From an uncultured Ectothiorhodospiraceae bacterium (lineage in GTDB: Bacteria; Bacteroidota; Ignavibacteria; SZUA-365; GCA-2699105): a stretch of DNA of 64,000 nucleotides. The notes under the pieces were generated by a model. That model was not told where the DNA came from and made no database searches. It saw only the letters and a list, made by a program, of their open reading frames with translations. This document shows, one piece after another, positions 26,830 to 55,538 of the stretch. The stretch lies in assembly GCA_964408855.1 (NCBI GenBank), contig CAYPBB010000004.1:51764-115763 (forward strand). The letters run 5' to 3'. The stretch's first letter is position 1, and the number at the start of each line of letters is the position of its first letter. Both the position numbers and the translations under genes were made by a program.

Positions 26830-27440
26830 CGTCCATAAATCCCTGCATGTATGTCAGTGCGAGACTGAGCATGTTGAATACATTGGCCCCCCCGGTGGTG
26901 CTTTCGTCAGGTCCGAGCATGACGGACTGTACTCAGGACAAAAGGGGGCAGCAATTGCATTGCGAAATCCGCACTGAGTATCGGGGGTTCTGGAAGGCGG
27001 CGCGGTTGACGAATCTGTCTCTGCGAGAACAGGCAGCCTACTATCCCCCCGCTCCGTATTTCTTCGCGCTGCAGCGAAGCCTTGCGCTCAGAAACGGATC
27101 GTGCCCTCCGGCAATGGCCGGATGAAGACACCTTGCTCACTCCTCTCAGTCCGCCTGAGGCGGACTGATCGTCGTGAAAGGGGCATAAAGAGTTTGCGAA
27201 ATCCGCACTGAGAATCGGGGGTTCTGGAAGTCGGAATCGTTTACCCCGTCCCGGTCCGTCCTTGAGAGTCCCTGCGCGTCTAATAGATGGCCCCCCGCCT
27301 CGTCACGGCTTCGCCCTGACGAGTCGACCCCCACGTCGTGGAGGTTTGAAGAAAACACCCAAGCCGTGTGGGTTTGAAGAAAATACCCGCGCCGCGGGGG
27401 TATGAAAACACGCCGCCCAATATCCATGCGGGTGCGGGAG
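26830..27440. repeat. GC-rich repeat cluster on the right flank of the low-GC insert (partial direct repeats of the left-flank motifs)
   Basis: About 39-nt direct repeat GCGAAATCCGCACTGAG(T/A)ATCGGGGGTTCTGGAAG(G/T)CGG at 26961-26999 and 27196-27234. CAGCCTAC(T/A)... GCTCCG at 27033-27055 matches 24376-24398. CCCCCCGCCTCG at 27294-27305 matches 24347-24358. GACGAG(T)CGACCCCCA(C)GTCGT at 27318-27339 matches 24398-24419. Tandem GGTTTGAAGAAAA(C/T)ACCC x2 at 27346-27386. Confidence 0.5.
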
Positions 27441-27581
27441 GCGGGTTGTGGTTTCGTGGGAATTATTCGCTACATTTGTATCGGATCTGTATGCCTGAAG
27501 AAGGCGCAATTGTGCCGGTCAGACTACAGAATCAACGAATCTGACGATTTTACTCACATTTTGACACAGGAGAAGAGTTTC

Positions 27582-28664
27582 ATGGCAACGCGCTCGCATA
27601 ACTTTTTTGCCGGACCGGCAGTGCTTCCGTTATCTGTTGTGGAAGCCGCCCGCGACGCCGCATGGGATTTTGCGGGAATGGGCATGTCGATCATGGAAAT
27701 CAGCCACCGCTCGAAGGAATTCGATAAGGTGATGCTTGAAGCCCAGGAAGACGCTCTCACGATCATGGGGCTTTCGAAGGACGAATATTCGGTTGTGTAC
27801 GTGGGCGGAGGCGCAAGCACCCAGTTCGCGATGGTGCCGATGAACTTCCTCCATACCAAAGCAGATTATGTCAATACCGGCGAGTGGGCAACCAAAGCGA
27901 TCAAAGAGGCGAAACTGTTCGGTACGCCCAATGTCGTTGCCACCTCGGAACCCGATAATTTCAACTATATCCCGAAAGACCTTCCCTGGTCTGCCGATGC
28001 GGACTATGCGCATATCACTACCAACAATACCATCTACGGAACCCGCTGGAACGAAATGCCCAACGTCGGCAATGTACCATTGGTCGCCGATATGTCGTCG
28101 GACATGCTCAGCCGCGAACTGGACTACAGTAAATTCAGCCTGATCTATGCAGGCGCGCAGAAGAACCTGGGACCCGCAGGCGTGGTGCTGGTCGTCATCA
28201 AGAAATCGTGGCTCGAAAAAGCCCGCACCGACATCCCCACCATGCTGAAATACAAAATCCACGTTGATAAGGATTCGATGTACAACACGCCGCCGGTGTT
28301 CCCGGTGTACGTTGTCGGACAGACGCTGAAGTGGATTCTGAAGGAAGGCGGACTCGGCGCTATCGAGGAACGCAACATTCGCAAGGCGAAGCTGATCTAC
28401 GATATGATCGATGCGTATCCCGAGTTCTACAAAGGCGCCGTGAAGGCAAAGGAAGACCGCTCGCTCATGAACATCACCTGGAACCTCCCGACGCCGGAAC
28501 TCGAAGACAAGTTCGTGGCGGAAGCCAAAGCGCAGAAAATGCTGGGGCTCAAAGGACACCGTTCCGTCGGCGGCATCCGCGCCAGCACATACAATGCCTG
28601 CCCGGTGGAATCGGTCGAGCTTCTCGCGAAGTTCATGGAAGAGTTCTACAAAGCGAACAAGTAA
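27582..28664 (+). CDS. serC: phosphoserine aminotransferase
   Basis: Class-V aminotransferase / SerC motifs (FFAGPAVLP, PLV(A)DMSS, QKN). RBS AGGAGAAG before ATG 27582. The ORF-track start 27402 extends into the upstream repeat region and is rejected. Confidence 0.9.
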   Translation: MATRSHNFFAGPAVLPLSVVEAARDAAWDFAGMGMSIMEISHRSKEFDKVMLEAQEDALTIMGLSKDEYSVVYVGGGASTQFAMVPMNFLHTKADYVNTGEWATKAIKEAKLFGTPNVVATSEPDNFNYIPKDLPWSADADYAHITTNNTIYGTRWNEMPNVGNVPLVADMSSDMLSRELDYSKFSLIYAGAQKNLGPAGVVLVVIKKSWLEKARTDIPTMLKYKIHVDKDSMYNTPPVFPVYVVGQTLKWILKEGGLGAIEERNIRKAKLIYDMIDAYPEFYKGAVKAKEDRSLMNITWNLPTPELEDKFVAEAKAQKMLGLKGHRSVGGIRASTYNACPVESVELLAKFMEEFYKANK

Positions 28665-36915: not shown

Positions 36916-37227
36916 TCAACGAGTATCGCCGGAATCCCATCCGTAGACATAAAGGTCTACAACACCCTTGTCGTTGAACCGTATGCCCTCCGCTTCGAGC
37001 AACATCCGTTGCGTTGCGTCGCCGGTTCCCTTGTTTCGCATACTGATGCGTCCCTTGCTGTTGATAACCCGGTGCCAGGGTATTGGGGCGCTTACCGGAA
37101 GCGCCGAAAGCGCGTATCCCGCCTGCCGAGCGGTGCACCCGGCGAGCGCCGCCACGGTTCCGTACGTAGCGACTTTCCCTTCGGGGATCTGTTCGACAAT
37201 TACATAGATATCGTCATAGGAGAACAT
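36916..37227 (-). CDS. alkyltransferase-like protein (ATL; MGMT DNA-binding domain with active-site Cys replaced by Trp)
   Basis: 103 aa. Helix-turn-helix of the O6-alkylguanine transferase fold. PWHRV in place of the catalytic PCHRV, the hallmark of ATL proteins (Atl1 / YbaZ-type). Confidence 0.7.
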   Translation of the reverse strand: MFSYDDIYVIVEQIPEGKVATYGTVAALAGCTARQAGYALSALPVSAPIPWHRVINSKGRISMRNKGTGDATQRMLLEAEGIRFNDKGVVDLYVYGWDSGDTR

Positions 37228-37374
37228 AGTTCAGAGCATTATTTACGAATGTCCGGTGCGATACTCCGGTATTGCAGTAATACCGGTAATATCGTAATTT
37301 TACCAGACGTGTGTAAACCTCAATTCTTGGATTGGGGCTTAATAGTTTTTCCTACTACTTCCTATTTCATTGAC

Positions 37375-38334
37375 ATGATCATCGGAAAAAAACTTGAAAT
37401 TTTCCTCGCCGTTGTCGACGCAGGAAGTTTTAGCGCTGCAACCAAACGTCTCGCCATCAGCCAGTCGGTCGTGAGTTTTCACATCGAAGCGCTGGAAAAT
37501 GAAATGGGACTGAAGTTTATAGAACGCAAAGGCAGGACAATCGAGCTGACTCCCGAAGGAGAGTTGCTCTATCAGAAAGGGAAACGTCTTCAACGGGAAG
37601 CGCATAAGCTTGAGGGACTTCTGGCGGAACAATCCGATCTCATCGCGCACCGGATCAGTTTCGCCGGCGATGCATTGACATGCGCATACACGCTGCCATG
37701 GAATGTCGCGGCGTTTCGCGAAGAGAATCCCTCGGTAGTCATCAGCTACGAGCACCTGCCGACCGACGAAGTATTGCAGAAACTCCTCAACGAGGAGATC
37801 GATCTTGCTCTGATGGGACATTCGGTCCGGCATAAAAAGCTGGAGATGAAGCGCTGTTACAGCGACGATATTATTCTCGTCGGTTGCGTCCGGAAAGCGC
37901 CGGACCAGATCAAGGTTTCCGATCTCCCGAATCTCCCTCTGTTATGGATCAACAGCGACAGGGGGCTCTCCATGCAGATATCGCATGAACTTGCCAATGC
38001 GGGAATGCCCATAAAGAATCTGAAGATTATCATGGAAGTGGAGAACTTCCCTATCATGAAGTCGTTCATTCGCGCCGGCGTTGCTTGCGCATTGCTGCCG
38101 AAGGTGGCGGTGGAAGACGAGCTACGATTCAACTTGTTGAAGAAGGTGGAGATCGTGGATCTCTCGTTGACACGGACCACCTATCTCGTTCATCGGAAGT
38201 CGAAAAACCAGAGGGAAATCGTAAGCCGGTTTCTGGAATTCTATCAGCACAACAGTTGGATGGATAGCAAGCGGCGTCTCGACTGCGCCAACCCCGAACA
38301 GCAGGTCGCGATAAAACTGTCGCCTGCTTCGTAG
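37375..38334 (+). CDS. LysR family transcriptional regulator
   Basis: N-terminal LysR HTH (LEIFLAVVDAGSFSAATKRLAISQSVVSFHIEALENEMG) and C-terminal substrate-binding domain. The ORF-track start 37009 would overlap the convergent ATL gene; internal ATG at 37375 is used. Confidence 0.8.
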   Translation: MIIGKKLEIFLAVVDAGSFSAATKRLAISQSVVSFHIEALENEMGLKFIERKGRTIELTPEGELLYQKGKRLQREAHKLEGLLAEQSDLIAHRISFAGDALTCAYTLPWNVAAFREENPSVVISYEHLPTDEVLQKLLNEEIDLALMGHSVRHKKLEMKRCYSDDIILVGCVRKAPDQIKVSDLPNLPLLWINSDRGLSMQISHELANAGMPIKNLKIIMEVENFPIMKSFIRAGVACALLPKVAVEDELRFNLLKKVEIVDLSLTRTTYLVHRKSKNQREIVSRFLEFYQHNSWMDSKRRLDCANPEQQVAIKLSPAS

Positions 38335-40244: not shown

Positions 40245-40532
40245 CTAGTATTCTCGCTGATTGTTCCTGAAATTACGTTTCGGTTTTTCTTCACGCGGAC
40301 GCGCTTCGCGGACGACGATGGCGCGTCCGTTGAAATCATGTCCATTGAGTGCGTCGATTGCGTTTTGGGCATTTGAATTATTCGGCATATCGACGAATGC
40401 AAATCCGCGGGATTTTCCAGTGAATTTGTCCGTGATCACGGAGGCAGATGAAACATCCCCGTACTGCTCAAACAGGGCGCGAATTTCTGAATCGCCTGAG
40501 GAATAAGGCAGATTCCCGACGTAAATATTCAT
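40245..40532 (-). CDS. RNA-binding protein (single RRM domain)
   Basis: RNP-2 IYVGNL and RNP-1 RGFAFVDM motifs. 95 aa with a C-terminal Arg-rich tail. Confidence 0.85.
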   Translation of the reverse strand: MNIYVGNLPYSSGDSEIRALFEQYGDVSSASVITDKFTGKSRGFAFVDMPNNSNAQNAIDALNGHDFNGRAIVVREARPREEKPKRNFRNNQREY

Positions 40533-40704
40533 ACAACAGACCTCATGGATTGGAGCAATGAAACGGAATGTTTTCGTTCACTCAACTATACAGTGAAAAC
40601 ATGTCCGGTGGCGCAGGCTCCAGGGTATGTGCAACACCCTGCTAAAATAATGGAAGTTTCCAAAGTTCCAACAGATGTTGAAACCATTCTTAGGAGTACT
40701 TATT

Positions 40705-42129
40705 CTATTTTGTCGAGAAATTCCTGCCGAGTATGTAGTCCGCCGCCGCATGCCCGCTTCTGACCGCTCCTTCGAGCGTCGCGGGGAGCGACGTACCGGT
40801 CCAGTCGCCTGCAATCGCGATTGCGCCATTCGCTATTGCGCCATTCGCGATTGCGCCATTCGCTATTGCGCCATTCGCTATTGCGCCATTCGCTATTGCG
40901 CCATTCGCTATTGCGCCATTCGCGATGGGGAACCGGGAGCGTACAGCATTGAGCCCCGGCGCGGGGATGAAGGTCGCAAACCGCTCGCGGACCGTTTTCA
41001 TGCGATAGAGTTCGCCCTGAGCGAGTGAAGGATATGCAGCATACAATTCCCGTGCAATCGTTCGTTCAAGTTCTTCGATCGGCTGATTGCTGACGGAGTC
41101 CGCCGCGGATATCACGCCGCTGTAGCGCCACCCTCCGTCCGCTGCCGAGCCTTTTGAGAACAGCCATTGGAGAGAGGTACCGAGGAATGCCGTCATTAGT
41201 TCATTTGTGAATTGCCGCTTCGACCATATATGCACCGAAGCGATTTCAGAAGGTACAAAAACGCCCGGAGGCGGAACCGGTATCGCCGCTTCGGGCGACG
41301 CAGCGGCAAGACGTTCATGCTGACGGTGCGATAATGCCAGTACAATAGCGGAGATGCTGTATGCATCCTTGTTCGTATTGATAGTGAAGCCGCTGCCGGC
41401 AGGAATGATCGATTCCACCATGGTATGGATCTGTATGCTGCCGCCGTTGCGAAGGATAGAGGAAAGCGCATCGTCGACATACAGCGCGCTCAAATCGGTA
41501 GACGGGAGAAGAAATGTCGATGCTGCTTTGCCGCCCAGAAACGCTTCCCTCAATACGGTCGCAAAAAGCATTGCGGAGGCATCGCGCGGGCGGGCGTTCA
41601 TCGTCGCGAGGACGATCGGTTCCCATAGCCGGGCGAGGGCGGCGGGTCCCTGACGCAGATGCGTCAACCACTCAAGCACGGAGCGAGTGTCCAGCGCCTG
41701 GAGCCTTTTACGCGAGAGCATCGCCGCGGCGCGGACGACATTCAGGAGCGCGAGCCGCTCGGCGAACGATAACATGTCGAATCCAAGAAATGCCGACAAT
41801 GCATCGAGAGGCCACGGGAGCCGCTTTGCTACAAGCGTCGCTCTATCCCCGTTGGCTGAGATAAACGGTACGCGGAGATTTCGGATAGGTACAAGTTTCG
41901 TATCGGCGCCGATGGTGCGGAGAAACGCGAGCATCTCCGTATAGCATCCCATCATGATATGCTGACCATTGTCGAGACGTTCGCCCGATATGCTGTCGGT
42001 GAAAGCGAACGCCCTTCCTCCGCAATGGGATTTTGCTTCGAACAGCGTAACGCGTATACCGCGCGAAGCCAGCCGGACCGCGGCTGCCAGCCCGGAAATC
42101 CCTCCCCCGATAACGGCGCAACCGGTCAT
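40705..42129 (-). CDS. hpnE: squalene-associated FAD-dependent desaturase (HpnE-like amine-oxidase family), with in-frame (ANGAI)x7 insertion
   Basis: N-terminal dinucleotide fold (AVIGGGISGLAAAVRLA). C-terminal GDWT...EGAVRSG FAD-binding motif. Position after the hpnC and hpnD homologues. Start overlaps the hpnD stop by 4 nt. Confidence 0.7.
   Translation of the reverse strand: MTGCAVIGGGISGLAAAVRLASRGIRVTLFEAKSHCGGRAFAFTDSISGERLDNGQHIMMGCYTEMLAFLRTIGADTKLVPIRNLRVPFISANGDRATLVAKRLPWPLDALSAFLGFDMLSFAERLALLNVVRAAAMLSRKRLQALDTRSVLEWLTHLRQGPAALARLWEPIVLATMNARPRDASAMLFATVLREAFLGGKAASTFLLPSTDLSALYVDDALSSILRNGGSIQIHTMVESIIPAGSGFTINTNKDAYSISAIVLALSHRQHERLAAASPEAAIPVPPPGVFVPSEIASVHIWSKRQFTNELMTAFLGTSLQWLFSKGSAADGGWRYSGVISAADSVSNQPIEELERTIARELYAAYPSLAQGELYRMKTVRERFATFIPAPGLNAVRSRFPIANGAIANGAIANGAIANGAIANGAIANGAIANGAIAIAGDWTGTSLPATLEGAVRSGHAAADYILGRNFSTK
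40811..40924. repeat. 15-bp perfect/near-perfect tandem repeat (ATTGCGCCATTCGCK) x7.6 inside hpnE coding sequence
   Basis: Seven full units at 40820-40924 plus a partial unit at 40811-40819. Differs only at the last unit base (T/G). Encodes ANGAI pentapeptide repeats on the minus strand. Confidence 0.9.
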
Positions 42130-42986
42130 ACAGTGGTTGCGTAGGCGACAGGGGAAGCGCTGTAGTATTCTTTCAGTGCGATAAACAGCTTGGTGGCAGG
42201 GGAGATGGAGATCTTTCCATCGAATACTTTGTAGTGCTTTTTCTCGATCTTGGTAAGAATGCGGTAGTAAATCTGGTCCATGATACGAGCGGCGAAGAAC
42301 GCTTTGTGGTCTTCATGTGCGAGAGAGAGCCGCGCCTTGTTATAGTAATCGCGCGCTCGTTGCACCTCGAACCGCATCAGGTCGATGAATGCCTGATTGT
42401 ATTTGCTTGCCAGTAATTCTTCTTCGCTGTACCCAAACCGGATAAAATCCTCATGGGGTAAGTAAATGCGGCCAATTTCCGCGTCGCTGCGTACGTCGCG
42501 GACAATATTGGTCAACTGCAGGGCGATTCCGAGATTGACTGCGTATTCCTTGGTTATTTCGTGCTTGTATCCGAAGATTTCGCTGCACATCAATCCGACG
42601 GTCGATGCTACCTTGTAGCAGTATTCATATAATTCCTCGAATGAAGTGTACCTGTTCTTCACCAGGTCCATTTCCATTCCATGGATGAGATCGTAGAAAT
42701 GGACGACAGGGATATTGAATTTCCTGGCAATCACGCTAAGCTTATTTAAAAGCGCGTGTTCGCTTTCGCCGCGGAGACCGCGCTCCAATTCCATCGCCCA
42801 AAGACTCAGACGCGCGCTTTTTACGGCTTTATCGCCTTCTTCATCCACAATGTCGTCGGTGCAACGGCAAAACGCGTACACAGTGTTAATTGCCTCGCGT
42901 TTGTGTTCCGGCAGCATCTGAAACGAAATCAGGAAATTCGTCTTGCTTTGTTTAGTGATGATTTCTTCTACACGGCTATCCTGCAT
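42126..42986 (-). CDS. hpnD: presqualene diphosphate synthase (squalene/phytoene synthase family)
   Basis: Isoprenoid synthase fold with Asp-rich motifs (YAFCRCTDDIVDE; DxxxD in second half). Segment LISFQMLPEHKREAINTVYAFCR is typical of HpnD. Confidence 0.75.
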   Translation of the reverse strand: MQDSRVEEIITKQSKTNFLISFQMLPEHKREAINTVYAFCRCTDDIVDEEGDKAVKSARLSLWAMELERGLRGESEHALLNKLSVIARKFNIPVVHFYDLIHGMEMDLVKNRYTSFEELYEYCYKVASTVGLMCSEIFGYKHEITKEYAVNLGIALQLTNIVRDVRSDAEIGRIYLPHEDFIRFGYSEEELLASKYNQAFIDLMRFEVQRARDYYNKARLSLAHEDHKAFFAARIMDQIYYRILTKIEKKHYKVFDGKISISPATKLFIALKEYYSASPVAYATTV

Positions 42987-43878
42987 GATCCTCTCCGGGA
43001 TTCGTTGCGCGCACGGGAAATACCGATCCGGTCAGAATGAGGAAATACTGCCTCATCGACAGAGCGGGACGCCGGGCGAGCACATCATAATCCTGTTGTT
43101 CAATCGCATCCAGAATCGATACGCCTCCCCGCCAAATTGCTTTCAGTTCAAGACGCAATCGCAGCGGGACTTGGGCAAACAGACTCGTTGCACTCCAAAA
43201 ATACTGTCTGGTGCGGTCAACCTCAAACTTCATCAGCCGTTTAAATGCAGCATTTGCATGGCTGGTACGGAGGTCGCTCTCGCCGATGCCGAACCGCGAC
43301 AGATCTTCGGCAGGAATATAGATCCGCGGTTTCCGGATATCCACCGAAACGTCCTGCCAGAAATTTGCCAGTTGGAGACCGGTACACAACGCGTCCGCAG
43401 GCGGGAACGTCGCGCCCGAGGCGCATCCAAACAACGCCAGGATAATTCTTCCTACGGGATCCGCCGAACGCGTGCAATAGTCCAGAACTTCCTCGAACGA
43501 TTCATACCGTTCCTTCACAATATCCTGTTTGAACGCATCGAGAAGGCGGTGGAACGGTTCGAGCGATAACCCATACCGTTTGACCGTATCGCCGAGAGCG
43601 ATGAATTCGGGCAGAGAAGGAGCGTCGAGGCACGCGTTCAACGCGCGGCGCCACTCGTCGAGACGCGCCAACCGCTGGTCAACGGAATCGTCGCCCTCGT
43701 CGGCGATGTCGTCGCCGTGCCGCGCAAACGCATACACGGCGGCCACGGCCGGGCGATGCCGTTTCGGTATGAGCATCGATCCGACCGGGAAATTCTCGTA
43801 GTGCGCCCGTGCGATGTTCGAGCAATGTTCATAGGAAGAAGCGAGAACACGGTCGTCTATTTCCTGATGCGGTTTCAT
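42976..43878 (-). CDS. hpnC: hydroxysqualene synthase (squalene/phytoene synthase family)
   Basis: YENFPVGS motif typical of HpnC. Asp-rich YAFARHGDDIADE. First gene of the hpnC-hpnD-hpnE order. 11-nt overlap with hpnD. Confidence 0.75.
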   Translation of the reverse strand: MKPHQEIDDRVLASSYEHCSNIARAHYENFPVGSMLIPKRHRPAVAAVYAFARHGDDIADEGDDSVDQRLARLDEWRRALNACLDAPSLPEFIALGDTVKRYGLSLEPFHRLLDAFKQDIVKERYESFEEVLDYCTRSADPVGRIILALFGCASGATFPPADALCTGLQLANFWQDVSVDIRKPRIYIPAEDLSRFGIGESDLRTSHANAAFKRLMKFEVDRTRQYFWSATSLFAQVPLRLRLELKAIWRGGVSILDAIEQQDYDVLARRPALSMRQYFLILTGSVFPVRATNPGEDHAG

Positions 43879-46752: not shown

Positions 46753-48774
46753 TTACTTCGTCAGCACCATCTTCTTGGTCGCGCGGTAGTTGCCTGCTTC
46801 GATGCGGTAGAAGTACACGCCCGAAGGTGCAACATGCGTATCAGTGTTGGTGGTTCCGTTCCAGGCGACGCGGTATGTGCCGGCCTGGTAGAATCCGTCG
46901 ACAAGAACGTTCACGCGTTTACCGTTTGCGTCGTACACGGCGAGCTTCACGTTCGCTCCTTTCGGGACGGAGAACATGATTTCGGTGCTCGGGTTGAACG
47001 GATTCGGGAAGTTCTGTGCGAGGTTGTAGTTGTTCGGAACCGCGCCGCCGACAGGTTCAACGTTCACTTTCTTCATCTCGTCGATGGAGGCCTTCAATAA
47101 TGCTTCCGCATATTTGAAGTTGTGGACGCCGAAGCTGTTGTCGTTGTTCACAAAGTAGTAATTCCAATGAACGTCGATTTCAAGCTGCGTCTTCAGCGCA
47201 GTATCGGACGGGAATCGCGGTCTGCCGTCCGGACGGAGCTTCAGATAGCCCTTCAACTCGTCGAGAAGCGCCTTGATTTCGGTCTGCGTTTCTTCCATTT
47301 CCGTCAGCGTGACGCCGCTCGTGTGGCAGGTCTTGCAACCGGTGTTGTTCAGGACATCGTCGGTAGCATCGTTCGGAGTGTCGTTGTCATAGAGAACACG
47401 GAAGGTGTGACCGCCGAGTTTATTGTTATACTGCGCATCCTCTGGTTCCGCCATGTGGCATTCGGCGCATGCGTCGGCAATGTTGGTGTGAACCGAATTC
47501 GGGTAGCTGTAACCCGGGAATTCGCGACCGCCTTCGCCCTTCAGCATCGGTCCCTGGTGCGAAGCGTGGAGACCGCTCTGACCGGAAGGACGGATACTGT
47601 GGCAATCGGCGCACAACTGGTTTTTGGCTTTCCGCAACTGCGACGGATTTGCGTTGCTGTGCGGATCGTGGCAGGTGACGCAACCGACGTAGGCGGGATC
47701 CTTGTACGGCGCATTCGAGAAGGAAGTTTCCGGCGGATTGGCGCTCTTGACGAACACATCGAGATAGCCTGCGGATGTATGGCAGCGGGCGCAATCGCTG
47801 TTCACGTTGGTCTTGCTGCCGCGGTTCATGTATTCCGGAAGCTCTGGACCTTCATCCATCGAGTGGCTGTGCGCGGAGTTCTCGTATTCCAGAAGCGTAC
47901 GGTGGTAGGGCGGCGCATCGTGGCACTGCTTGCACGTCTCGCTCGATGCGGAAGAATAAATCTTGTTGTCGCCGGTCGGGCCGCCGTGGGCGCTGCCGGG
48001 GCCATGACACGATTCGCATTGAATGCCTGCGCGGTGCGCGAGCATAGGCGCGACGAGCTTTAACGAATCCCAGTTGCCGGCTTTCAATTCGGTTGGGAAC
48101 GTCCAACTGCTCGATTTTGCTAGATGAAGGAATCCATCGCCTTCCGCAGCCGGATTCGTGGAACCAGTGGTGTGGCAACCGAGGCAGTTTGAATTGAAAT
48201 GCCCGCCGACTTCATCAAGCCGGCGTTCCAATGCCGTTGCGTGCGCCGTCTGGTTCCATGTAGTTGCTACGGCGCTGTGGCACATAGCGCACTGCGGATA
48301 CGTCGCCGCGCCGCCGAGCATGGTGCCGACGCCGACATACTTGGCGACGTTGATCGCAAGCGTGTCCGTTCCGCCGTTCCCTTTGTTGTCCGTAGCGGTA
48401 AGCTGGATTTTATACGTTCCTTCCATGTCTGGAATGAAGAACGCGCGTTGCTGATCGATCATCGTGAACGCCGCGGTCGATCCTGCAGGCGCAGAGATGA
48501 ATGTGAATGTCGATGATGCCCAGGCTGTTGCGTCGCCGTTTGTAGCGTCGCGGGAGAATTTCCCGAAGACGCCCAAATAGACTTTTCCGCCTTTGGCGCA
48601 ATTCGGTAGACCGCTGAACGGCACATCGTACGCATCCGCAGGATCCGCAGCGACGAGGTTCGGCGATACGCCAAACGTACGGGCTTTCACAACAGCCGGG
48701 GTTAGCTGAGCATGGAGCGGCAGTGCGAAGCTCACCAGCACGGCTGCTACCAGAAATAGATGCAATGCCCTCAT
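46753..48774 (-). CDS. extracellular nonaheme c-type cytochrome with T9SS C-terminal sorting domain
   Basis: Signal peptide MRALHLFLVAAVLVSFALPLHAQ. Nine CxxCH motifs (CAMCH, CLGCH, CESCH, CKQCH, CARCH, CVTCH, CADCH, CAECH, CKTCH). C-terminal roughly 90 aa fits the T9SS CTD pattern (NFPNPFNPSTEI...VYDANGKRV...SGVYFYRIEAGNYRATKKMVLTK). Confidence 0.75.
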   Translation of the reverse strand: MRALHLFLVAAVLVSFALPLHAQLTPAVVKARTFGVSPNLVAADPADAYDVPFSGLPNCAKGGKVYLGVFGKFSRDATNGDATAWASSTFTFISAPAGSTAAFTMIDQQRAFFIPDMEGTYKIQLTATDNKGNGGTDTLAINVAKYVGVGTMLGGAATYPQCAMCHSAVATTWNQTAHATALERRLDEVGGHFNSNCLGCHTTGSTNPAAEGDGFLHLAKSSSWTFPTELKAGNWDSLKLVAPMLAHRAGIQCESCHGPGSAHGGPTGDNKIYSSASSETCKQCHDAPPYHRTLLEYENSAHSHSMDEGPELPEYMNRGSKTNVNSDCARCHTSAGYLDVFVKSANPPETSFSNAPYKDPAYVGCVTCHDPHSNANPSQLRKAKNQLCADCHSIRPSGQSGLHASHQGPMLKGEGGREFPGYSYPNSVHTNIADACAECHMAEPEDAQYNNKLGGHTFRVLYDNDTPNDATDDVLNNTGCKTCHTSGVTLTEMEETQTEIKALLDELKGYLKLRPDGRPRFPSDTALKTQLEIDVHWNYYFVNNDNSFGVHNFKYAEALLKASIDEMKKVNVEPVGGAVPNNYNLAQNFPNPFNPSTEIMFSVPKGANVKLAVYDANGKRVNVLVDGFYQAGTYRVAWNGTTNTDTHVAPSGVYFYRIEAGNYRATKKMVLTK

Positions 48775-49190
48775 TTAACCTCCGATACAATGATTTGATG
48801 GGACAAATAGAAGAACCTGTCTTCTTTTATTAAGACATGGATTTCCGAATGCAATAACGAACTGCAATACTGCAACTGCTAACTGCGCAATCCTAGAAAA
48901 ACGGCTGAAACTTTGCGTTGTGACAGTGAAATATACACAAGCCATTCTCCATTTTCCAGTAGAGCGCATCAAGAGCAATGAATAAATCATTGAACGGCAA
49001 GCCAACCCAAGCTTTTTTGTGGGAAAGAACAAGGATGAGGTGCTTGACATTTACAGTCGCTTTCGTCTTAGTGTGTAAATATTCTACATCAATATACGAA
49101 CAACGTCGTGTAACTGTCAATGAATTCTACACTTATTTCTGAAAAAAAGATGCTTTTGTATTCAGTCCGACGTGTCCCCTTTAAAACGGC

Positions 49191-49217
49191 AAAAGTGACG
49201 CAAATTGCGCCACTTTT
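49191..49217. terminator. putative bidirectional terminator hairpin downstream of the multiheme lipoprotein gene
   Basis: AAAAGTGACGCA-aat-TGCGCCACTTTT palindrome (one mismatch) flanked by an A-run and a T-run. Confidence 0.4.
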
Positions 49218-49241
49218 GATCCGATTTGTCTTTTGTTTCTG

Positions 49242-50075
49242 TTACCAGTCGGTGCGTTCCAAACCGAAAACATTCAATTTGCCGTTCACGTGCAGGTTTT
49301 TATCGATGATATTATTGTTTGCGTCCACCGTTTGAGAATGGCAATTCGAGCATGTGGACGGGAAGCTTGCGTGCTGCTGTCCTTTTGGCTTCGGATCGCC
49401 GGTTGCCGGGTTGCCGTGGCACGACCCGCACTTCGCCTGATCGGTCCCTTTCCAGGAGACTGTTGCGTTATTTCCGCCTGTAAAGTTTCCGTGGCAGTAG
49501 GTATTTGCGCAGCCCGCACCGTCCTGTTGGAAGGAGGGAGTGCCGGAAGTACCAATCGTTACGGTGTTTGCCAGTGCGATGTTCAGCACGACTTCCGCTC
49601 CGTCCGGATTGCTGCCGCCGATGTGATTCGGATCGTCGAATCCGGTTATCGCCGGGTGGCAGTTCGTGCAGACCAAATTGAGAGAGGAACTGAGGCCCTG
49701 ATCGATATGCCTGCCGTGGGTTGCATACCAATATGGATAATTGGTCCCCCGGTCGCGTTCGCCGTGGCACGTATAACACGCTTCCGGTCCGCCGTCTTCC
49801 GCCCGGTGGCATCCCGATGTTGTACAGGAAACCTTTGCGATCCCTCCTGCATAGTCCTTTCCGTGACAGGTCGTGCAATTCTCCAGACTCCAGCCGTTCG
49901 ATCGGATCACCGTTCCGTGCCAATCGGGAGACGAGGGACTCGTCATACCCGGCGGATGGATGCCGTTCAGTGCCGGCGCAATCGGAAGATCTCCCTTATC
50001 CTTTAGCTCGCTTGAACAACCGGCAATCGCAAGCATTGCGAACGCCAGTCCTGCTAGTATTACTCGTGCGTTCAT
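49242..50075 (-). CDS. multiheme c-type cytochrome lipoprotein
   Basis: Lipoprotein signal (LAIAGCSSE). Five canonical CxxCH (CTTCH, CYTCH, CTNCH, CGSCH, CSNCH) plus two Cx4CH-like motifs (CTTSGCH, CANTYCH). 277 aa. Start overlaps the upstream gene by 4 nt. Confidence 0.7.
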   Translation of the reverse strand: MNARVILAGLAFAMLAIAGCSSELKDKGDLPIAPALNGIHPPGMTSPSSPDWHGTVIRSNGWSLENCTTCHGKDYAGGIAKVSCTTSGCHRAEDGGPEACYTCHGERDRGTNYPYWYATHGRHIDQGLSSSLNLVCTNCHPAITGFDDPNHIGGSNPDGAEVVLNIALANTVTIGTSGTPSFQQDGAGCANTYCHGNFTGGNNATVSWKGTDQAKCGSCHGNPATGDPKPKGQQHASFPSTCSNCHSQTVDANNNIIDKNLHVNGKLNVFGLERTDW

Positions 50076-51151
50076 TTGTTTTCACCTCCTGCCACTCCAG
50101 TCGAATGGCAAACCATACATACCGGATCGCCTCCGTCGACATTATGGCACGTAGCGCAGTGCTGGATATCCATCGATGCAAGGCGCGCATGACGGTTCAT
50201 CGCTTTGCCGCCCGTCGCCGAAGCAAATCCGGCAAGCTGGTGCGACTGCGGCACGATCCGTTCGCCGTTTGCGTCGTACCCGTTGGTGTGGCAATCGACG
50301 CAGAAGCTCTCCTGTTCGTGACACGTTGCGCAACGGCTCGATTGAATCCGCGCATCGAATCCGTGCGTGTATTTATACGTCAGACTATGCGCCTGTTGCG
50401 AGGTAAGCATGCCGCCGTCGTCCATTTTTTCGCCGCGAGGGTAGCTACCGATATAGAAATCTGTCTTCGTCGATGGAGCCGGCACATCATTCGTCGGTGT
50501 ATGGCATTCGGCGCAGAAGCTCTGCGAGTGGCAAACCGCGCAGTCGCGGCTGTCCTCGCCGGTGAGCGCCATCTTTCCATGGAACCTGGAGAAATCGGCC
50601 ATACGGTGATTTTTTGGAAGGAGGTTCGCAAGATTGGTATGGCACGCTTCGCATTGGTTGGTTGCCACGTTCTGCTGCATGGCGTCCGCCATCGAAACAA
50701 TCGGAGCAATTTTTTCGGCATTGTTGTGACACTCATAGCATCCGTCCATCGACGGTCCGGTAAAGCTGTCGCCGGTTTGGATATGGCAGCGGGCGCATTC
50801 AAGCTTCTGCGCGTCTGCATGGAATTTATGCGAGAAACGCAGTTCGTGAGGTCTCGGTGTACCTTTCACCTCGGCAAGATCGGTCGTTGCGTCCAATCCC
50901 CAATACTTGCGCACATCCGCTTCTTCATGGCAGCTCTGGCATGCGGAAGGGCCAGGAATGAGGTTGTCTTCCGCCGATTGGCTTTCGGCTGCCGCATGGC
51001 AGTCTGCGCAGGCGGCGAGTTCCTTGTGAATCTCATGCGAGAACATCACGCCGACCTTCGTCGCATCGGCGGCGGAAGGCGAGCTTGTCAGCGACACCAG
51101 TACTATCGCGGCTACAAGCAGTGAAGCGAAAATGGAATAGTAGTATTTCAT
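50072..51151 (-). CDS. periplasmic undecaheme c-type cytochrome
   Basis: Eleven CxxCH motifs. Signal peptide beginning MKYYYSIFASLLVAAIVLV; the ORF-track start 51196 is probably an over-extension. Confidence 0.75.
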   Translation of the reverse strand: MKYYYSIFASLLVAAIVLVSLTSSPSAADATKVGVMFSHEIHKELAACADCHAAAESQSAEDNLIPGPSACQSCHEEADVRKYWGLDATTDLAEVKGTPRPHELRFSHKFHADAQKLECARCHIQTGDSFTGPSMDGCYECHNNAEKIAPIVSMADAMQQNVATNQCEACHTNLANLLPKNHRMADFSRFHGKMALTGEDSRDCAVCHSQSFCAECHTPTNDVPAPSTKTDFYIGSYPRGEKMDDGGMLTSQQAHSLTYKYTHGFDARIQSSRCATCHEQESFCVDCHTNGYDANGERIVPQSHQLAGFASATGGKAMNRHARLASMDIQHCATCHNVDGGDPVCMVCHSTGVAGGENK

Positions 51152-52479
51152 TGCGCTTCCTCCTTGGTCGACCATCCGAGAGGATCGTTGAACCAATAGT
51201 TGATCCTGAGCAAGCCGCGCGTATCCGATTTATAAATGCGGTTGCTCATGTATTGCCCCTGCAGATCGATGGAGACGATTGGGATGGGGCGGTAGGTAAG
51301 ACCGGCAATGCCTGCCCACGCCGACGTTTTTTCGAGCTTATCGGATAGGGCGTAGTTGCTGTACACGACGCCTGCATGCGGCGTGAGTTTGTTTTCAAGA
51401 AACGGATACCGGAATTCGAAATTCAGTCCGTCGAGATCTCCATCCCAGCTCATGTCCTTTGTGTACATGATGGCGGCGTATTTATGCGATGCGCCGACGG
51501 AGAACCGGTACGCCGTCGATTCAAGACCGTCGATTTCCGGATAATCGTCGCCGGCGTTGTAGATGACCGCCGAAAAACGTCCCATCAACGTGATGCGTGG
51601 ATGAATCTTGTAGTCGATGCCGAGCACCGCCTCCTGATTCGCGCTCATCTCGAGGATGGAGAAATACGAATTCCAGGCGATAGTGGGCGCACGATGGGCG
51701 AGATTCAGAGATAGCCCCAGGTTGTCCAACGCCTGGTATGTCGCCGCAACTTCGGCGCGGGAGGCCTGCTCGAAATTGAAATCGTAATCGAATCTTACGT
51801 ACAGCCAGACGTTGTCGACAAGATAGCTGACGTTCAGACTGCCGTACTGGTTGGCGCGCGAACCGTAATCGATGGTTGTGGTCACCGCCTGACCGAGCGG
51901 ATCGAGCCGCAGGGCTTCGAACGGTGTCGATTCGCGGTGCCGGTTCATGTAACTCAATCCGAGCTTCATATTCTCGACGAGGTACAACGATACCTGCGCG
52001 CCGATCTGCCAGTTGTCTTCGAGATTGTTGAAGAAATCGGTTCTCTGCGATGGGGGAGTCAACCCGCCGCCGTAGCCCATGATTTCAACGCGGTTCGATG
52101 GACGTACGCGGATAGATGCGCCGTCTACGGTCCCGTAATTGACACCGGCATACACCGCCTGCCTTCCGAGACGGAGGTCGATCATATCTGCGACGTTCTT
52201 CACATTGATGTATGCGTTGAACAACCGCAATCTTGGATCGTGATCCATCTCGGTATCGAAATCGGTCGATGCCTGCATGTAGGTGTGGAACGAAATGTCT
52301 GCCGTTCCAAAGTTGAGTTGAATGTTCTCGTATGCTCTCAGGTGCGTTGTCGACGAGTCGGTTGAAAACGAGCGTTCCCAGCCATAGACGGTCGTCACCA
52401 GCCTGCCGTTCAGGACCTGCGCCGTCGAGACGCCTGAAAGCACGACGAGAAACAGAACAACAGTACAAACCTTTTGCAT
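51148..52479 (-). CDS. putative outer-membrane beta-barrel (porin-like) protein of a porin-cytochrome conduit
   Basis: Signal peptide MQKVCTVVLFLVVLSGVSTAQ. 443 aa, rich in Tyr/Gly/Asn with alternating hydrophobic beta-strand pattern. Flanked on both sides by multiheme cytochrome genes. Confidence 0.5.
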   Translation of the reverse strand: MQKVCTVVLFLVVLSGVSTAQVLNGRLVTTVYGWERSFSTDSSTTHLRAYENIQLNFGTADISFHTYMQASTDFDTEMDHDPRLRLFNAYINVKNVADMIDLRLGRQAVYAGVNYGTVDGASIRVRPSNRVEIMGYGGGLTPPSQRTDFFNNLEDNWQIGAQVSLYLVENMKLGLSYMNRHRESTPFEALRLDPLGQAVTTTIDYGSRANQYGSLNVSYLVDNVWLYVRFDYDFNFEQASRAEVAATYQALDNLGLSLNLAHRAPTIAWNSYFSILEMSANQEAVLGIDYKIHPRITLMGRFSAVIYNAGDDYPEIDGLESTAYRFSVGASHKYAAIMYTKDMSWDGDLDGLNFEFRYPFLENKLTPHAGVVYSNYALSDKLEKTSAWAGIAGLTYRPIPIVSIDLQGQYMSNRIYKSDTRGLLRINYWFNDPLGWSTKEEAQ

Positions 52480-52544
52480 ATGTTCGTCCTTTAGTTCTGT
52501 TGACCAGAATGAGAGTTGTTAATTGCTTGAATTTGGATAACTGC

Positions 52545-52586
52545 GGGGTAAAAACAAAACAGGCGGACCCGCATGGGATCCGCCTG
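52545..52586 (-). terminator. putative terminator/attenuator downstream of tetraheme cytochrome gene
   Basis: Hairpin CAGGCGGA(CC)...(GGGA)TCCGCCTG with a U-run on the minus transcript (plus GGGGTAAAAACAAAAC). Confidence 0.4.
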
Positions 52587-52599
52587 CGGTCTAGATTGA

Positions 52600-53160
52600 C
52601 TATTTTGGCAAACCGTGCTCGATTTTCGCCCACATTTCCTTCATTTTGAAGGCTTTATATGTCGGGCTTTTTTCGTTGTGGCACTGCTTGCAATGCTTTT
52701 CGGCGCTGCCGTCGGCCACCTTGGGTAATTCCAGTCCGAGTTTCTTCGCTTCTTCAAGCTGTTCGGGTTTGTTGTGTTTCGTCTTGAACAGCGATGCAGC
52801 ACCGTGGCACGATTCGCAGCCGACGCCTTCGGCTTTGTCGAACTTCGCGTCGAACTTCGCAGCTTTTTCCATCATCCCGGTAACATGGCAACTGAGGCAT
52901 TCCGGCGTTTCGGCTGCCTTGGTTTTAAAGCCTTTGTCTGCCGCGATTTTGTCCGCAGCGGGTGTTTGAAGGGTTTTGAACGCACTGGCATGGGCGCTCG
53001 ACTCCCATTTGGCGTACACTTTACCGCCCTTGTCGGTGTTATGGCATCCTTTGCACGACTTGGCGCCGACGTATTGCGGCGAATCGGCTGGCGTGAGAGT
53101 GAATGCGCACAACGCCACAAAAACGATCGATCCGAGAATTGGCACGACGACTCGTTTCAT
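52600..53160 (-). CDS. periplasmic tetraheme c-type cytochrome
   Basis: Signal peptide. Four CxxCH (CKGCH, CLSCH, CESCH, CKQCH). 186 aa, Lys-rich. Confidence 0.8.
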   Translation of the reverse strand: MKRVVVPILGSIVFVALCAFTLTPADSPQYVGAKSCKGCHNTDKGGKVYAKWESSAHASAFKTLQTPAADKIAADKGFKTKAAETPECLSCHVTGMMEKAAKFDAKFDKAEGVGCESCHGAASLFKTKHNKPEQLEEAKKLGLELPKVADGSAEKHCKQCHNEKSPTYKAFKMKEMWAKIEHGLPK

Positions 53161-53267
53161 TTTCTCCTCGATTCATTGGTGAATGGATTATTGATTTGTG
53201 TATGTATTGCAAAAAGCAGTTGCATGGGTTCGGTATCTGGAGTCCTATGTCCTCTACTTCTATGTAT

Positions 53268-55538
53268 TTACGACTGAGGATGTTCCTTCGCGCCGTTCAC
53301 GCTTTCTTCGTCGTCGGTGATGATTGTCACATCACCGGCTTTCGCCTTCAGGCGCTCGAGTTCAAGTGGATGCTCTTCGAGCATTTCATGCTCGGTGAGG
53401 GTACCCTTGAACCAGGCGACATTCATCGGATATACGTCTGGGTTGAAGATGATAAAGTAAAAATGCCAGACGATGATAGCAAGCGTTGCGAGCCATGCTT
53501 CGTAAAAATGGATGATGGTCATGATATCGAGGAATTCCTTCGAGGTCATCGCTCCGAAAAACTCATGGAACCACAGCATCAGACCCGTCGCGCCCATCAC
53601 GATCGTGCCCCAGATCAACGCCCAGTATTCGGCTTTCTCCATATAACTGAATCTGTCGAACCTCGGCCGGTCGCCGGTTCTGCCGAGGTACCACTTGAAT
53701 GCCTGAAGCGCATCTTTCACATCTTTCCAGATAGGCAGCATATCCTTGATGAACTGTCTGCCGCGTTTGGTGGCGACCATGTACCAGATGTGATACAGCG
53801 ACGCAGCGAGCATGACGGCTCCGGCAATTCTGTGAAGAACGCCGCGCAGTTCAAACGCCGGTTCGCCGAGAATCTCGCGGATGTATACCACCCACCATGC
53901 ATTGGGGTAGGTCAATCCAAAGCCGGTGAATACGAGCAGAATGAAACTCAGTGCGAGCGTCGCGTGCTGGATTCGCTCGCTCAGCGTCATTCTCAGATAT
54001 AGATTGTGGGCAACCTCGTGCTGGTGACCTCTACGGCGGGCTTTCAGCTTTTCGAGCGCCTTCTTCCTGAAATCAAGCAGATTGTGGAAGAGCATCCCGC
54101 CGATTGTCAGTACGATGAGCAGGATGTAGATCGTCGTGATCGTGTATTGAATTCCGGATTCCTTCTCGGTGCGGACAACATGGATCGGACCTTTTGTAAA
54201 GCTCTCGGAGGCGTTCGGATGGCACTTCCCGCATGTTTGTTTCAAATTGGAGGGATGAATGCTCGACGTTGAATCGCTCGATGGTTTAATGCTATGCGCG
54301 CCGTGGCAGCTCGCGCAATTCGCTGCGACTTTCGATCCGCCCTGAACGGCGAGCCCGTGATAGCTGTCGAGATAGCTTTCTCCGGGATTCGCGACGATAC
54401 CGTATTTGTCTGCCATGCGCACCGAGTTGTGGCAGGGAAGACACACCTTCTCCGGAAGGTTGCGGCTGTTTACCGGCGATTGCTTTGAATCGACGGCAAG
54501 AATGCCGTGTTCTCCGTGGCAATCGGTACAAGATGGCGCATCGCGGACGCCGCGCGCAAGCGCCGAACCATGGATGCTCTCGTTGAATTCCGTTTTGATG
54601 GCATCGTGACATTTCCCGCATGTAGTCGGAATTTTCAGCTTGTTCACTTTCGAGTCCGCGACAGACCCGGGCGCTACTTCGTGCGCTCCGTGGCAATCGA
54701 TGCAGTTTGCAGCATCAGCATTACCGCGGTGCAGCGACATCCCGTGGATGCTATGCTCATACGCATCGATGAAACCGGCGCTTGTCGCCATGCGCGATTT
54801 CACATCGTCGTCGTTTTGATGGCATGAAAGGCAGAGTTTTTCCTGCGCAATCTTCAGGTCCAGCTTGCTCAGTCCGCTGCTGGGCGTGATCGATTTGGAG
54901 TGGCACGAAATACATGTCGGCGCGCCTTTGACATTGGCGGCGACTGCTTTCCCGTGCCACGATGCGTTGAATGTCGCGACCTCGGCGCTGTGGCATGTGC
55001 CGCACGACTTGTTCAGATTTGCGCTGGAAAATGGAGAAGCCGGGTTTTTCGGAGCGACGACATTATGTGTTCCGTGGCACTCCTTGCACGCCGATTGCAA
55101 ACGTCCGGCAGTCTTAGCGGCATTCAGCATTGAGGCGTGGAATTTGTGCGTCTGCAGCGCGTCTTTATGGCAGCTTGTACACTGCACCGGAGTGATTTTC
55201 TCTTTATGCGGCACATCGTCGGGATTGAATCCGACATGACAAGAGATACAACTCAGCTTGCTATGAGGAGAGGCTTTCAGAATCTTCGGATTGGTGTAGA
55301 GCGAAACCTCTCTCCCGTTTTTCTCCATCGTCAAATCTTTATCGTTATGGCAAGCCTGACAATCGGCGACCGATTGGGCGATACTTTGTCCGCTGAATAT
55401 CAGCAGTACCGCCGCAGACAGGAATGCCAGAAGCTGGGTCCTTTTCATCGAAGTATACCTGCTTTCGGAGCAAATCTGGCGTTTGTTAAATTCAACGTGC
55501 TTCCTTTCTGGTGTAGTATTCATGGGTTTGCGCGGCAT
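53268..55538 (-). CDS. CbcL-like fusion: periplasmic multiheme (13 CxxCH) c-type cytochrome domain plus C-terminal membrane di-heme cytochrome b (HydC/FdnI-type) domain
   Basis: Signal/anchor. Thirteen CxxCH motifs in the N-terminal roughly 430 aa. C-terminal roughly 300 aa carries 4-5 TM helices with conserved His (HNLLDF, HRIAGAV, HFYEAW, WHFYFI), as in Ni/Fe-hydrogenase / formate-dehydrogenase b-type cytochrome subunits. Confidence 0.7.
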   Translation of the reverse strand: MPRKPMNTTPERKHVEFNKRQICSESRYTSMKRTQLLAFLSAAVLLIFSGQSIAQSVADCQACHNDKDLTMEKNGREVSLYTNPKILKASPHSKLSCISCHVGFNPDDVPHKEKITPVQCTSCHKDALQTHKFHASMLNAAKTAGRLQSACKECHGTHNVVAPKNPASPFSSANLNKSCGTCHSAEVATFNASWHGKAVAANVKGAPTCISCHSKSITPSSGLSKLDLKIAQEKLCLSCHQNDDDVKSRMATSAGFIDAYEHSIHGMSLHRGNADAANCIDCHGAHEVAPGSVADSKVNKLKIPTTCGKCHDAIKTEFNESIHGSALARGVRDAPSCTDCHGEHGILAVDSKQSPVNSRNLPEKVCLPCHNSVRMADKYGIVANPGESYLDSYHGLAVQGGSKVAANCASCHGAHSIKPSSDSTSSIHPSNLKQTCGKCHPNASESFTKGPIHVVRTEKESGIQYTITTIYILLIVLTIGGMLFHNLLDFRKKALEKLKARRRGHQHEVAHNLYLRMTLSERIQHATLALSFILLVFTGFGLTYPNAWWVVYIREILGEPAFELRGVLHRIAGAVMLAASLYHIWYMVATKRGRQFIKDMLPIWKDVKDALQAFKWYLGRTGDRPRFDRFSYMEKAEYWALIWGTIVMGATGLMLWFHEFFGAMTSKEFLDIMTIIHFYEAWLATLAIIVWHFYFIIFNPDVYPMNVAWFKGTLTEHEMLEEHPLELERLKAKAGDVTIITDDEESVNGAKEHPQS

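What the first reader, a model, noticed from the sequence alone, without database searches (positions are those of the whole stretch)
40811..40924. Perfect 15-bp tandem repeat x7 inside hpnE encoding (ANGAI)7 just before the FAD-binding GDWT motif
Seven nearly identical units ATTGCGCCATTCGC(T/G) are in frame (15 nt = 5 codons). They insert 35 residues of AIANG repeats immediately upstream of the conserved C-terminal AGDWT...EGAV FAD-binding strand of an amine-oxidase-fold enzyme. Such perfect repeats are recent: they show no decay. They may arise from replication slippage that changes unit number between cells, which would give phase-variable enzyme length or activity. They could also be an assembly artefact of a collapsed or expanded microsatellite. 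Either way the locus is unstable and could affect hopanoid (squalene) synthesis.
Basis: seen in the sequence. Interest (0 to 1): 0.6.

Follow-up and report, generated by a model that had tools for sequence, protein, structure and literature searches.

The report
Variable in-frame repeat inside squalene enzyme HpnE
A 15-base unit is repeated seven times, in frame, inside a bacterial squalene-synthesis gene (hpnE); a nearly identical strain has only three copies, so this is a real, recently expanded, length-variable repeat that most likely just lengthens a floppy surface loop of the enzyme.

Summary
Window 40820-40924 carries seven head-to-tail 15-nt units. They are identical except for one synonymous wobble base. 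An eighth, degenerate unit lies at 40807-40821.

The array lies in frame in a minus-strand gene (40705-42129, 474 aa). That gene is a clear HpnE (TIGR03467, 349.8 bits, cutoff 283) and is the last gene of an hpnC-hpnD-hpnE operon. The array encodes (IANGA)7 + IAIAG directly before the GDWT motif.

In 60 of 61 motif-matched homologues from other lineages (119 screened) this segment is 16-18 residues long (one has 11). Here it is 48. One unit gives the family length, so six units (30 aa) are extra.

A JGI metagenome contig is about 99.75% identical over 5.1 kb with no other indel, and it has three units. Copy number therefore differs between near-identical strains.

An independent k=31 assembly of run SRR12489248 is 100% identical to the window. 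It breaks exactly where the window's array predicts, so the repeat is not an assembly invention.

AlphaFold models of both alleles keep an identical, confident core. The repeat appears as a low-confidence loop.

Best reading: a microhomology-seeded tandem duplication (7-nt ATCGCGA, 15 nt apart) expanded by slippage. This is an ordinary VNTR in an unusual place. It cannot act as an on/off phase switch. Any effect on enzyme activity is unknown.

The parts
40822..40926 (-). Seven 15-nt tandem units (AT[C/A]GCGAATGGCGCA on the coding strand) encoding IANGA x7, HpnE aa 402-436
   Evidence: TRF score 204; 7 exact tandem matches of the 14-nt core; in-frame translation
40807..40821 (-). Degenerate eighth unit ATCGCGATTGCAGGC encoding IAIAG. 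It forms the last beta-strand of the FAD domain and ends in G441 of the GD motif. Its first 7 nt (ATCGCGA) are the microhomology partner of the unit start
   Evidence: 10/15 identical to a unit, first 7 nt identical; AF2 strand 436-439
40798..40809 (-). GDWT motif (aa 441-444) of the C-terminal FAD-binding element. G441 is invariant and D442 nearly invariant in 80 HpnE sequences
40705..42129 (-). hpnE, hydroxysqualene dehydroxylase, 474 aa
   Evidence: NCBIfam TIGR03467 349.8 bits against cutoff 283.05; Pfam Amino_oxidase 1e-31; AF2 pLDDT 91.8, best PDB fold match rice phytoene desaturase 5mog, TM 0.80
42126..42986 (-). hpnD, presqualene diphosphate synthase. Its stop overlaps the hpnE start by 4 nt
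   Evidence: TIGR03465 294.2 bits against cutoff 278.6; coordinates
42976..43878 (-). hpnC, squalene synthase HpnC (hydroxysqualene synthase in the three-step pathway). It overlaps hpnD by 11 nt
   Evidence: TIGR03464 329.2 bits against cutoff 250.45; coordinates

Best explanation
This is a genuine, evolutionarily young, copy-number-polymorphic in-frame minisatellite (VNTR) inside hpnE.

Origin (inferred). The ancestral sequence had one IANGA unit followed by IAIAG. It therefore carried a 7-nt direct microhomology, ATCGCGA, twice and 15 nt apart. A microhomology-mediated tandem duplication of the intervening 15 nt created the first extra unit.

Expansion (mechanism inferred, outcome shown). 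With 30 nt or more of perfect tandem homology, slipped-strand mispairing or unequal recombination expanded and contracted the array. This window's strain has 7 units and a sister strain has 3.

Consequence (partly shown, partly inferred). The unit is 5 codons, so every allele stays in frame. The only change is the length of the connection between the substrate-domain strand and the last beta-strand of the FAD-binding Rossmann domain. That connection is lengthened by 10 aa (3 units) or 30 aa (7 units). It is predicted to be a flexible excursion that leaves the catalytic core intact. The most likely functional effect is neutral or mildly deleterious, not regulatory.
For: Array and frame.

Gene identity and operon.

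Family length at this site: the ATF..PG-to-GDW spacing is 16-18 aa in 58 of the 61 sequences (of 121 screened) that matched the motif, and 11 in one. It is 48 in the window and 28 in P0001. Both reduce to 18 with one unit.

Polymorphism: P0001/L001 (JGI 3300023203) has 13 substitutions in about 5.1 kb outside the array and no other gap. It has 3 units, and their wobble pattern (C C C | A) is not derivable by simple deletion from C A A A A C A | C.

Independent read-level support: Logan contigs of SRR12489248 and SRR12489243 are 100% identical to the window. The 10.2-kb contig starts inside the array at exactly the first non-branching 31-mer predicted from the window allele. That requires at least 4 units with an internal ATA-to-ATC unit transition.

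Microhomology: ATCGCGA is shared by the unit and the degenerate unit. The MTD mechanism and its bias toward in-frame products are described in PMC8639346.

Protein: all 18 invariant and 37 near-invariant HpnE columns are retained. AF2 of the 7-unit allele gives pLDDT 91.8 and pTM 0.91, with only aa 405-432 below 50. The 3-unit allele gives pLDDT 94.5, with only 408-410 below 50. Both have the same secondary-structure elements.
Against: Only two alleles were recovered. Within-population variation is untested.

AF2 does not measure stability or activity. A 30-aa insert adjacent to the FAD-binding GD motif, at a site that varies little in length across the family (11-18 aa in the motif-matched homologues), could impair folding or FAD binding.

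Frame retention is automatic for a 15-nt unit, so it is not evidence of selection for function.

hpnE shows 2 nonsynonymous and 1 synonymous difference between the strains. That is too few to judge constraint.

The exact copy number (7) rests on one assembly.
Confidence: 0.72

Rival explanations
1. Adaptive 'tuning knob'. The array is a contingency locus whose unit number is selected to modulate HpnE activity, stability, oligomerisation or membrane association. It would thereby modulate squalene/triterpenoid output across subpopulations.
For: Copy number differs between near-identical strains. The array shows more change than the flanks: at least 2 wobble differences in 60 nt or less, against 0.25% elsewhere. 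The insert sits next to the FAD-binding GD motif. Tandem-repeat copy-number variation with phenotypic effects is documented in bacteria, though for promoters (PMC12817950).
Against: There is no evidence of any functional effect. AF2 sees only a disordered loop. No motif-matched homologue from another lineage has an insert here, so this is not a conserved design. High turnover is expected from mutation alone in any perfect tandem array.
Confidence: 0.1
2. Disabling insertion. The expansion has inactivated or crippled HpnE in this lineage, and the gene is on its way to becoming a pseudogene.
For: The site varies little in length in the motif-matched homologues: 16-18 aa, one case of 11. It directly precedes the strand and GD motif that bind FAD. 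Frame retention is not informative. The hpnE differences between strains are 2 nonsynonymous to 1 synonymous.
Against: The ORF is intact in both strains. All invariant and near-invariant family residues are kept. hpnC and hpnD are intact and translationally coupled to hpnE. The model core is as confident as for the short allele. The NCBIfam score is still well above the equivalog cutoff despite the insert.
Confidence: 0.12
3. Assembly artefact. The array, or its length of seven units, was created by mis-assembly of a short tandem repeat.
For: Tandem repeats are a known source of assembly error (PMC6868369, listed). The window allele needs k>=61 or spanning reads to be resolved. No reads were available here.
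Against: The array is present in three independent assemblies. The Logan k=31 contig is 100% identical to the window for 6.6 kb and begins at exactly the predicted unitig boundary, which requires at least 4 units. The whole array is 120 nt, shorter than typical 150-nt reads. The 3-unit allele has a different unit-variant pattern, so it is not a collapse product.
Confidence: 0.05

Closest known systems
Bacterial intragenic VNTRs / minisatellites (the loci used for MLVA typing; in-frame repeat-number polymorphisms in coding genes)
   Same: Head-to-tail, near-perfect units whose length is a multiple of 3. Copy number differs between very closely related strains while the flanks are nearly identical. 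Slipped-strand mispairing is the presumed driver.
   Different: Most well-studied coding VNTRs lie in surface, secreted or low-complexity linker proteins (my own knowledge). This one is inside the conserved core of a cytoplasmic or membrane-associated flavoenzyme, 5 residues upstream of its FAD-binding GD motif.
Microhomology-mediated tandem duplication (MTD), as characterised genome-wide in S. pombe (PMC8639346)
   Same: The pre-duplication sequence reconstructed from the degenerate unit has a 7-nt microhomology pair exactly one unit (15 nt) apart. The product is in frame. Such duplications are described as rapidly reversible and prone to further expansion.
   Different: That work was done in a eukaryote and mostly for single duplications. 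Here the process is inferred, not observed, in an uncultured bacterium, and it has gone on to 3 and 7 copies.
Simple-sequence-repeat phase variation (contingency loci) and promoter tandem-repeat copy-number variation (e.g. M. tuberculosis, PMC12817950)
   Same: A hypermutable tandem repeat generates heritable, reversible length variants.
   Different: There is no frameshift and no promoter-spacing change, so no on/off switch is possible. Only the protein loop length changes.
HpnE / phytoene-desaturase-type FAD amine-oxidase-fold enzymes (TIGR03467; fold of rice PDS, PDB 5mog)
   Same: Full-length match above the equivalog cutoff. The hpnCDE operon is present. GxGxxG and GDW...EGA..SG motifs are present. 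The predicted fold has TM 0.80 to 5mog.
   Different: A 30-aa repeat insert lies between the substrate-domain strand and the last FAD-domain strand. No comparable insert was seen in the 59 motif-matched homologues from other lineages.

Membership tests
HpnE (hydroxysqualene dehydroxylase, NCBIfam TIGR03467) | Whole-protein score above the curated equivalog cutoff | tested here: met
   349.8 bits against cutoff 283.05. The match is split into two stretches by the insert
HpnE (hydroxysqualene dehydroxylase, NCBIfam TIGR03467) | N-terminal GxGxxG dinucleotide-binding motif and C-terminal GD(W/Y)...P.T.EGA..SG FAD motif | tested here: met
   G8, G10, G13, G441, P449, T451, E453, A455 and G459 are invariant columns in an 80-sequence alignment that includes the window protein
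HpnE (hydroxysqualene dehydroxylase, NCBIfam TIGR03467) | Genomic association with hpnC and hpnD | tested here: met
   hpnC (TIGR03464, 329 bits) and hpnD (TIGR03465, 294 bits) lie immediately upstream on the same strand with overlapping stop and start codons
HpnE (hydroxysqualene dehydroxylase, NCBIfam TIGR03467) | Catalyses FAD-dependent conversion of hydroxysqualene to squalene | not testable with these tools
   Requires an enzyme assay. The pathway is described in the literature returned (e.g. PMC7306690)
VNTR / polymorphic minisatellite | Tandem head-to-tail units of high identity | tested here: met
   7 units, 14/15 positions invariant, TRF score 204
VNTR / polymorphic minisatellite | Unit number differs between closely related genomes while the flanks are conserved | tested here: met
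   7 against 3 units. 13 substitutions and no other indel in about 5.1 kb
VNTR / polymorphic minisatellite | Unit-number heterogeneity within one population or culture | not testable with these tools
   No reads were available. Logan k=31 contigs break in the array and give no count
Phase-variable contingency locus (on/off by repeat slippage) | A change in unit number shifts the reading frame or alters promoter spacing | tested here: not met
   The unit is 15 nt (5 codons) and lies inside the ORF, about 1.2 kb from the start codon. Both alleles are in frame
Microhomology-mediated tandem duplication product | A microhomology pair bounds the duplicated unit in the pre-duplication sequence, with spacing equal to the unit length | tested here: met
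   ATCGCGA is present at the start of the unit and of the following degenerate unit, 15 nt apart. The ancestral state is inferred, not observed
Pentapeptide-repeat proteins (A[D/N]LXX beta-helix, Pfam Pentapeptide families) | Significant match to a Pentapeptide HMM, and the central hydrophobic L/F of the consensus | tested here: not met
   No Pentapeptide family among Pfam hits at E<=0.1. The unit ANGAI has G (or A in the other register) at the central position. AF2 gives pLDDT below 50 with no regular structure

The most novel reading that the evidence does not exclude
The array is a selected hypermutable 'length dial' in a lipid-biosynthesis flavoenzyme. Changing the number of IANGA units next to the FAD-binding strand would tune HpnE activity or membrane association. 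That would diversify squalene/triterpenoid content among cells of an uncultured bacterium. This would be a form of in-frame, graded phase variation acting on a core metabolic enzyme rather than a surface protein.
Probability: 0.07. Interest if true: 0.6.

Novelty: new member of a known kind. Interest (0 to 1): 0.28.

Why it matters
Mainly as a caution and a marker. It shows that a structurally conserved flavoenzyme can carry a 10-30 residue, strain-variable repeat next to its cofactor-binding motif. Length outliers of this kind in MAG proteins can therefore be real and need not be mis-assemblies.

The locus would make a convenient strain-typing marker for this uncultured lineage. It is also a clean natural example of microhomology-seeded tandem duplication followed by expansion in a bacterium.

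If unit number affected HpnE activity it would be a new way of varying membrane triterpenoid supply. Nothing found here points to that.

Tried and rejected
1. DNA scans of metagenome contigs and genome contigs with left flank plus one unit (CGGTTCCCCATHGCGAATGGCGCA) returned only unrelated chance matches, L002-L005.

2. A protein search with the C-terminal 130 aa, meant to catch fragmentary alleles, returned nothing, not even P0001. This is a dead end of the word index.

3. Neighbour-gene look-ups (HpnD, RRM protein, M49 peptidase) were used to find other contigs reaching the repeat. L006-L008, L010 and L011 all stop short. Only L009 reaches it, and it breaks inside it.

4. Cluster look-ups gave no organism names. 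A paper search for the run and sample ids found nothing.

5. Pentapeptide-repeat or beta-solenoid reading: rejected. There is no Pfam hit, the consensus does not fit, and AF2 confidence is low.

6. The 40-aa repeat peptide was searched against 1.84 billion representatives. It gave 680 hits at E<=0.001. The six inspected are unrelated proteins with their own low-complexity pentapeptide arrays, such as (IASGA)n, (xNGAx)n and (KNGDI)n. This is compositional or periodic similarity, not homology. No hit in the top 150 exceeded 76% identity to the query.

7. Hairpin-promoted instability: the single-stranded DNA fold of the array is no more stable than shuffles (z -0.65 and -0.71).

8. The plus-strand ORF 40675-41028 ('CAIRY' repeats, 117 aa) is treated as a by-product of the stop-free repeat lying opposite the conserved HpnE C-terminus.

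9. Rfam found no RNA family in the window. The promoter/terminator scan around the operon was at background level.

10. PDB sequence search found no solved HpnE. Only the N-terminal FAD motif matches other amine oxidases.

Full report
**The observation**

Reading window 40600-41100 and running Tandem Repeats Finder over the whole window confirm a 15-nt tandem array at 40815-40923: 7.3 copies, 96% matches, score 204. It is by far the strongest array in the 64 kb; the next best scores 86.

The 14-nt core ATTGCGCCATTCGC occurs seven times exactly, spaced 15 nt apart, from 40820 to 40923. None of 100 dinucleotide shuffles reached the observed number of matches.

Otherwise the description is accurate.

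In codon register on the minus strand the units are AT[C/A] GCG AAT GGC GCA, encoding IANGA. There are seven of them at 40822-40926 (aa 402-436). A degenerate eighth unit, ATCGCGATTGCAGGC (IAIAG), follows at 40807-40821, and then comes DWTG. The only variable base is the synonymous Ile wobble position. Its order is C A A A A C A, then C in the degenerate unit.

**The gene**

The array lies in the minus-strand ORF 40705-42129 (474 aa). This ORF scores 349.8 bits against NCBIfam TIGR03467 HpnE, whose cutoff is 283.05. The match is split into two stretches by the insert. It also matches Pfam Amino_oxidase across the whole length.

Immediately upstream on the same strand are hpnD (TIGR03465) and hpnC (TIGR03464), with overlapping stop and start codons. 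Together these are the three-gene bacterial squalene pathway discussed in PMC7306690 and the other papers.

The AlphaFold model is confident, with pLDDT 91.8 and pTM 0.91. Its best solved-structure match is rice phytoene desaturase 5mog, TM 0.80. No HpnE structure exists in the PDB by sequence.

No squalene-hopene cyclase was found among the larger ORFs scanned across the window, so the link to hopanoids specifically is unverified. Neighbouring genes include T9SS-tailed proteins and multihaem cytochromes. That suggests an FCB-group bacterium, but no source gave an organism name.

**Is the insert normal for the family?**

It is not. I screened 121 sequences: 119 homologues from other lineages plus the two alleles. 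The distance from the ATF..PG motif to GDW could be measured in the 61 sequences where a strict motif matched. It is 16-18 residues in 58 of them and 11 in one. It is 48 in the window protein and 28 in its closest relative.

Removing all but one unit gives 18 in both. The one-unit sequence aligns without gaps to the orthologues. One IANGA is therefore ancestral: it is the turn and the start of the last beta-strand of the FAD domain. Six units (30 aa) are extra here.

The window protein still holds every one of the 18 invariant and 37 near-invariant columns of an 80-sequence HpnE alignment.

**Copy-number variation**

The closest database protein, P0001, is 454 aa, exactly 20 residues shorter. 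It shares a 90% cluster with the window protein. It is carried by two JGI contigs.

The retrieved contig, L001 (sample 3300023203), aligns to window 45789-40547. It has 13 substitutions in about 5.1 kb outside the array and no indel other than a 60-nt (4-unit) difference in the array.

Its array is ATC, ATC, ATC, then ATA in the degenerate unit. That pattern cannot be obtained from C A A A A C A | C by deleting units. It is therefore a distinct allele, not an assembly collapse, and the array has changed faster than its flanks.

**Is the window allele an artefact?**

Logan (k=31) contigs of runs SRR12489248 and SRR12489243 are 100% identical to the window. One 10.2-kb contig, held as the 6.6-kb locus L009, begins inside the array with ATGGCGCAATAGCGAATGGCGCAATCGCGAT...

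A k=31 de Bruijn simulation of the window sequence predicts exactly this unitig start. A break at this point requires both ...ATA-unit/ATC-GCGAA and ...ATA-unit/ATC-GCGAT junctions in the reads. That means at least four units of the window type.

The full array is 120 nt and becomes unambiguous at k>=61, so ordinary 150-nt reads can resolve it. The count of seven is thus plausible but not verified from reads here.

**Mechanism**

The unit and the degenerate unit share their first seven bases, ATCGCGA. A one-unit ancestor therefore carried a 7-nt microhomology pair 15 nt apart. That is the substrate for microhomology-mediated tandem duplication, which yields in-frame, reversible duplications (PMC8639346).

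Once two or more perfect units exist, slipped-strand mispairing or unequal exchange explains the 3- and 7-unit alleles and the shuffled wobble variants. This step is inferred.

The single-stranded DNA of the array folds no better than shuffled controls, so hairpins need not be invoked.

**Consequence for the protein**

AlphaFold models of the 7-unit and 3-unit alleles have the same secondary-structure elements and equally confident cores. Only residues 405-432 (7 units) or 408-410 (3 units) fall below pLDDT 50. The IAIA strand and the following helix are unchanged. This fits a flexible excursion from the connection preceding the last Rossmann strand.

It does not prove the enzyme works. AF2 is insensitive to destabilisation, and the site varies little in length in the rest of the family. 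Frame retention is automatic for a 15-nt unit. The few substitutions between strains (hpnE: 2 nonsynonymous, 1 synonymous) are uninformative.

The repeat is not a pentapeptide-repeat domain. A search of 1.84 billion representatives with the repeat peptide found only unrelated low-complexity pentapeptide arrays, such as (IASGA)n or (KNGDI)n.

**Verdict**

This is a real, young, strain-variable in-frame VNTR in hpnE. It most likely arose by microhomology-mediated duplication followed by slippage, and it is tolerated as a loop.

It is not classical phase variation, because no frameshift or promoter effect is possible. The array itself is not an assembly artefact.

An adaptive tuning role or a disabling effect cannot be excluded, but neither has support. 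This is an unusual location for a well-known kind of sequence feature, so interest is modest.

Noticed in passing
window 57132-57183: A 15-nt direct repeat, 3.5 copies (minus strand GCACCTG[C/T]GAA[A/G]AAT), lies 50-100 nt upstream of the start (57080) of a NrfH-like multihaem cytochrome gene on the minus strand (55590-57080). It is intergenic and could be iterated regulator-binding sites or another slippage-prone array.
   Followed up: partly
window 27343-27406: An imperfect 28-nt repeat, 2.3 copies (GGTTTGAAGAAAAYACCC...GCCGYG), lies directly upstream of the class-V aminotransferase ORF 27402-28664. Function unknown.
   Followed up: no
window 46753-57080: A run of minus-strand genes for multihaem c-type cytochromes (CxxCH domains; QrcA-, DmsE- and NrfH-like hits well below cutoffs), plus a 673-aa protein that combines an UshA-like region, doubled CXXCH motifs and a T9SS C-terminal sorting domain. 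This looks like an extracellular or periplasmic electron-transfer module in a T9SS-bearing (FCB-group) bacterium.
   Followed up: no
window 40675-41028 (+): A 117-aa plus-strand ORF with (CAIRY)n repeats exists only because the repeat is stop-free on the opposite strand. It overlaps the conserved HpnE C-terminus and is almost certainly not a gene.
   Followed up: partly
window 37009-38334 (+): The longest-ORF call for the LysR-family regulator (441 aa, TTG start) is probably too long. The LysR match begins at about aa 127, and the gene called on the identical Logan contig is 319 aa.
   Followed up: no
L006 end (= window 41494), L008 end (= window 41773), L001/L010/L011 ends (window about 40505-40547): Several independent contigs of this population terminate inside hpnE or in the RRM-protein gene, where the window has no repeat. 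This suggests co-occurring strain variants that create assembly-graph branches in those samples.
   Followed up: no
P0152, P0163, P0237, P0241, P0208, P0145: Unrelated proteins from public data carry their own long arrays of x-[N/S/R]-G-[A/D]-x pentapeptides, for example (IASGA)8 and (KNGDI)n. Small-residue pentapeptide minisatellites of this type seem to arise recurrently in coding sequences.
   Followed up: partly
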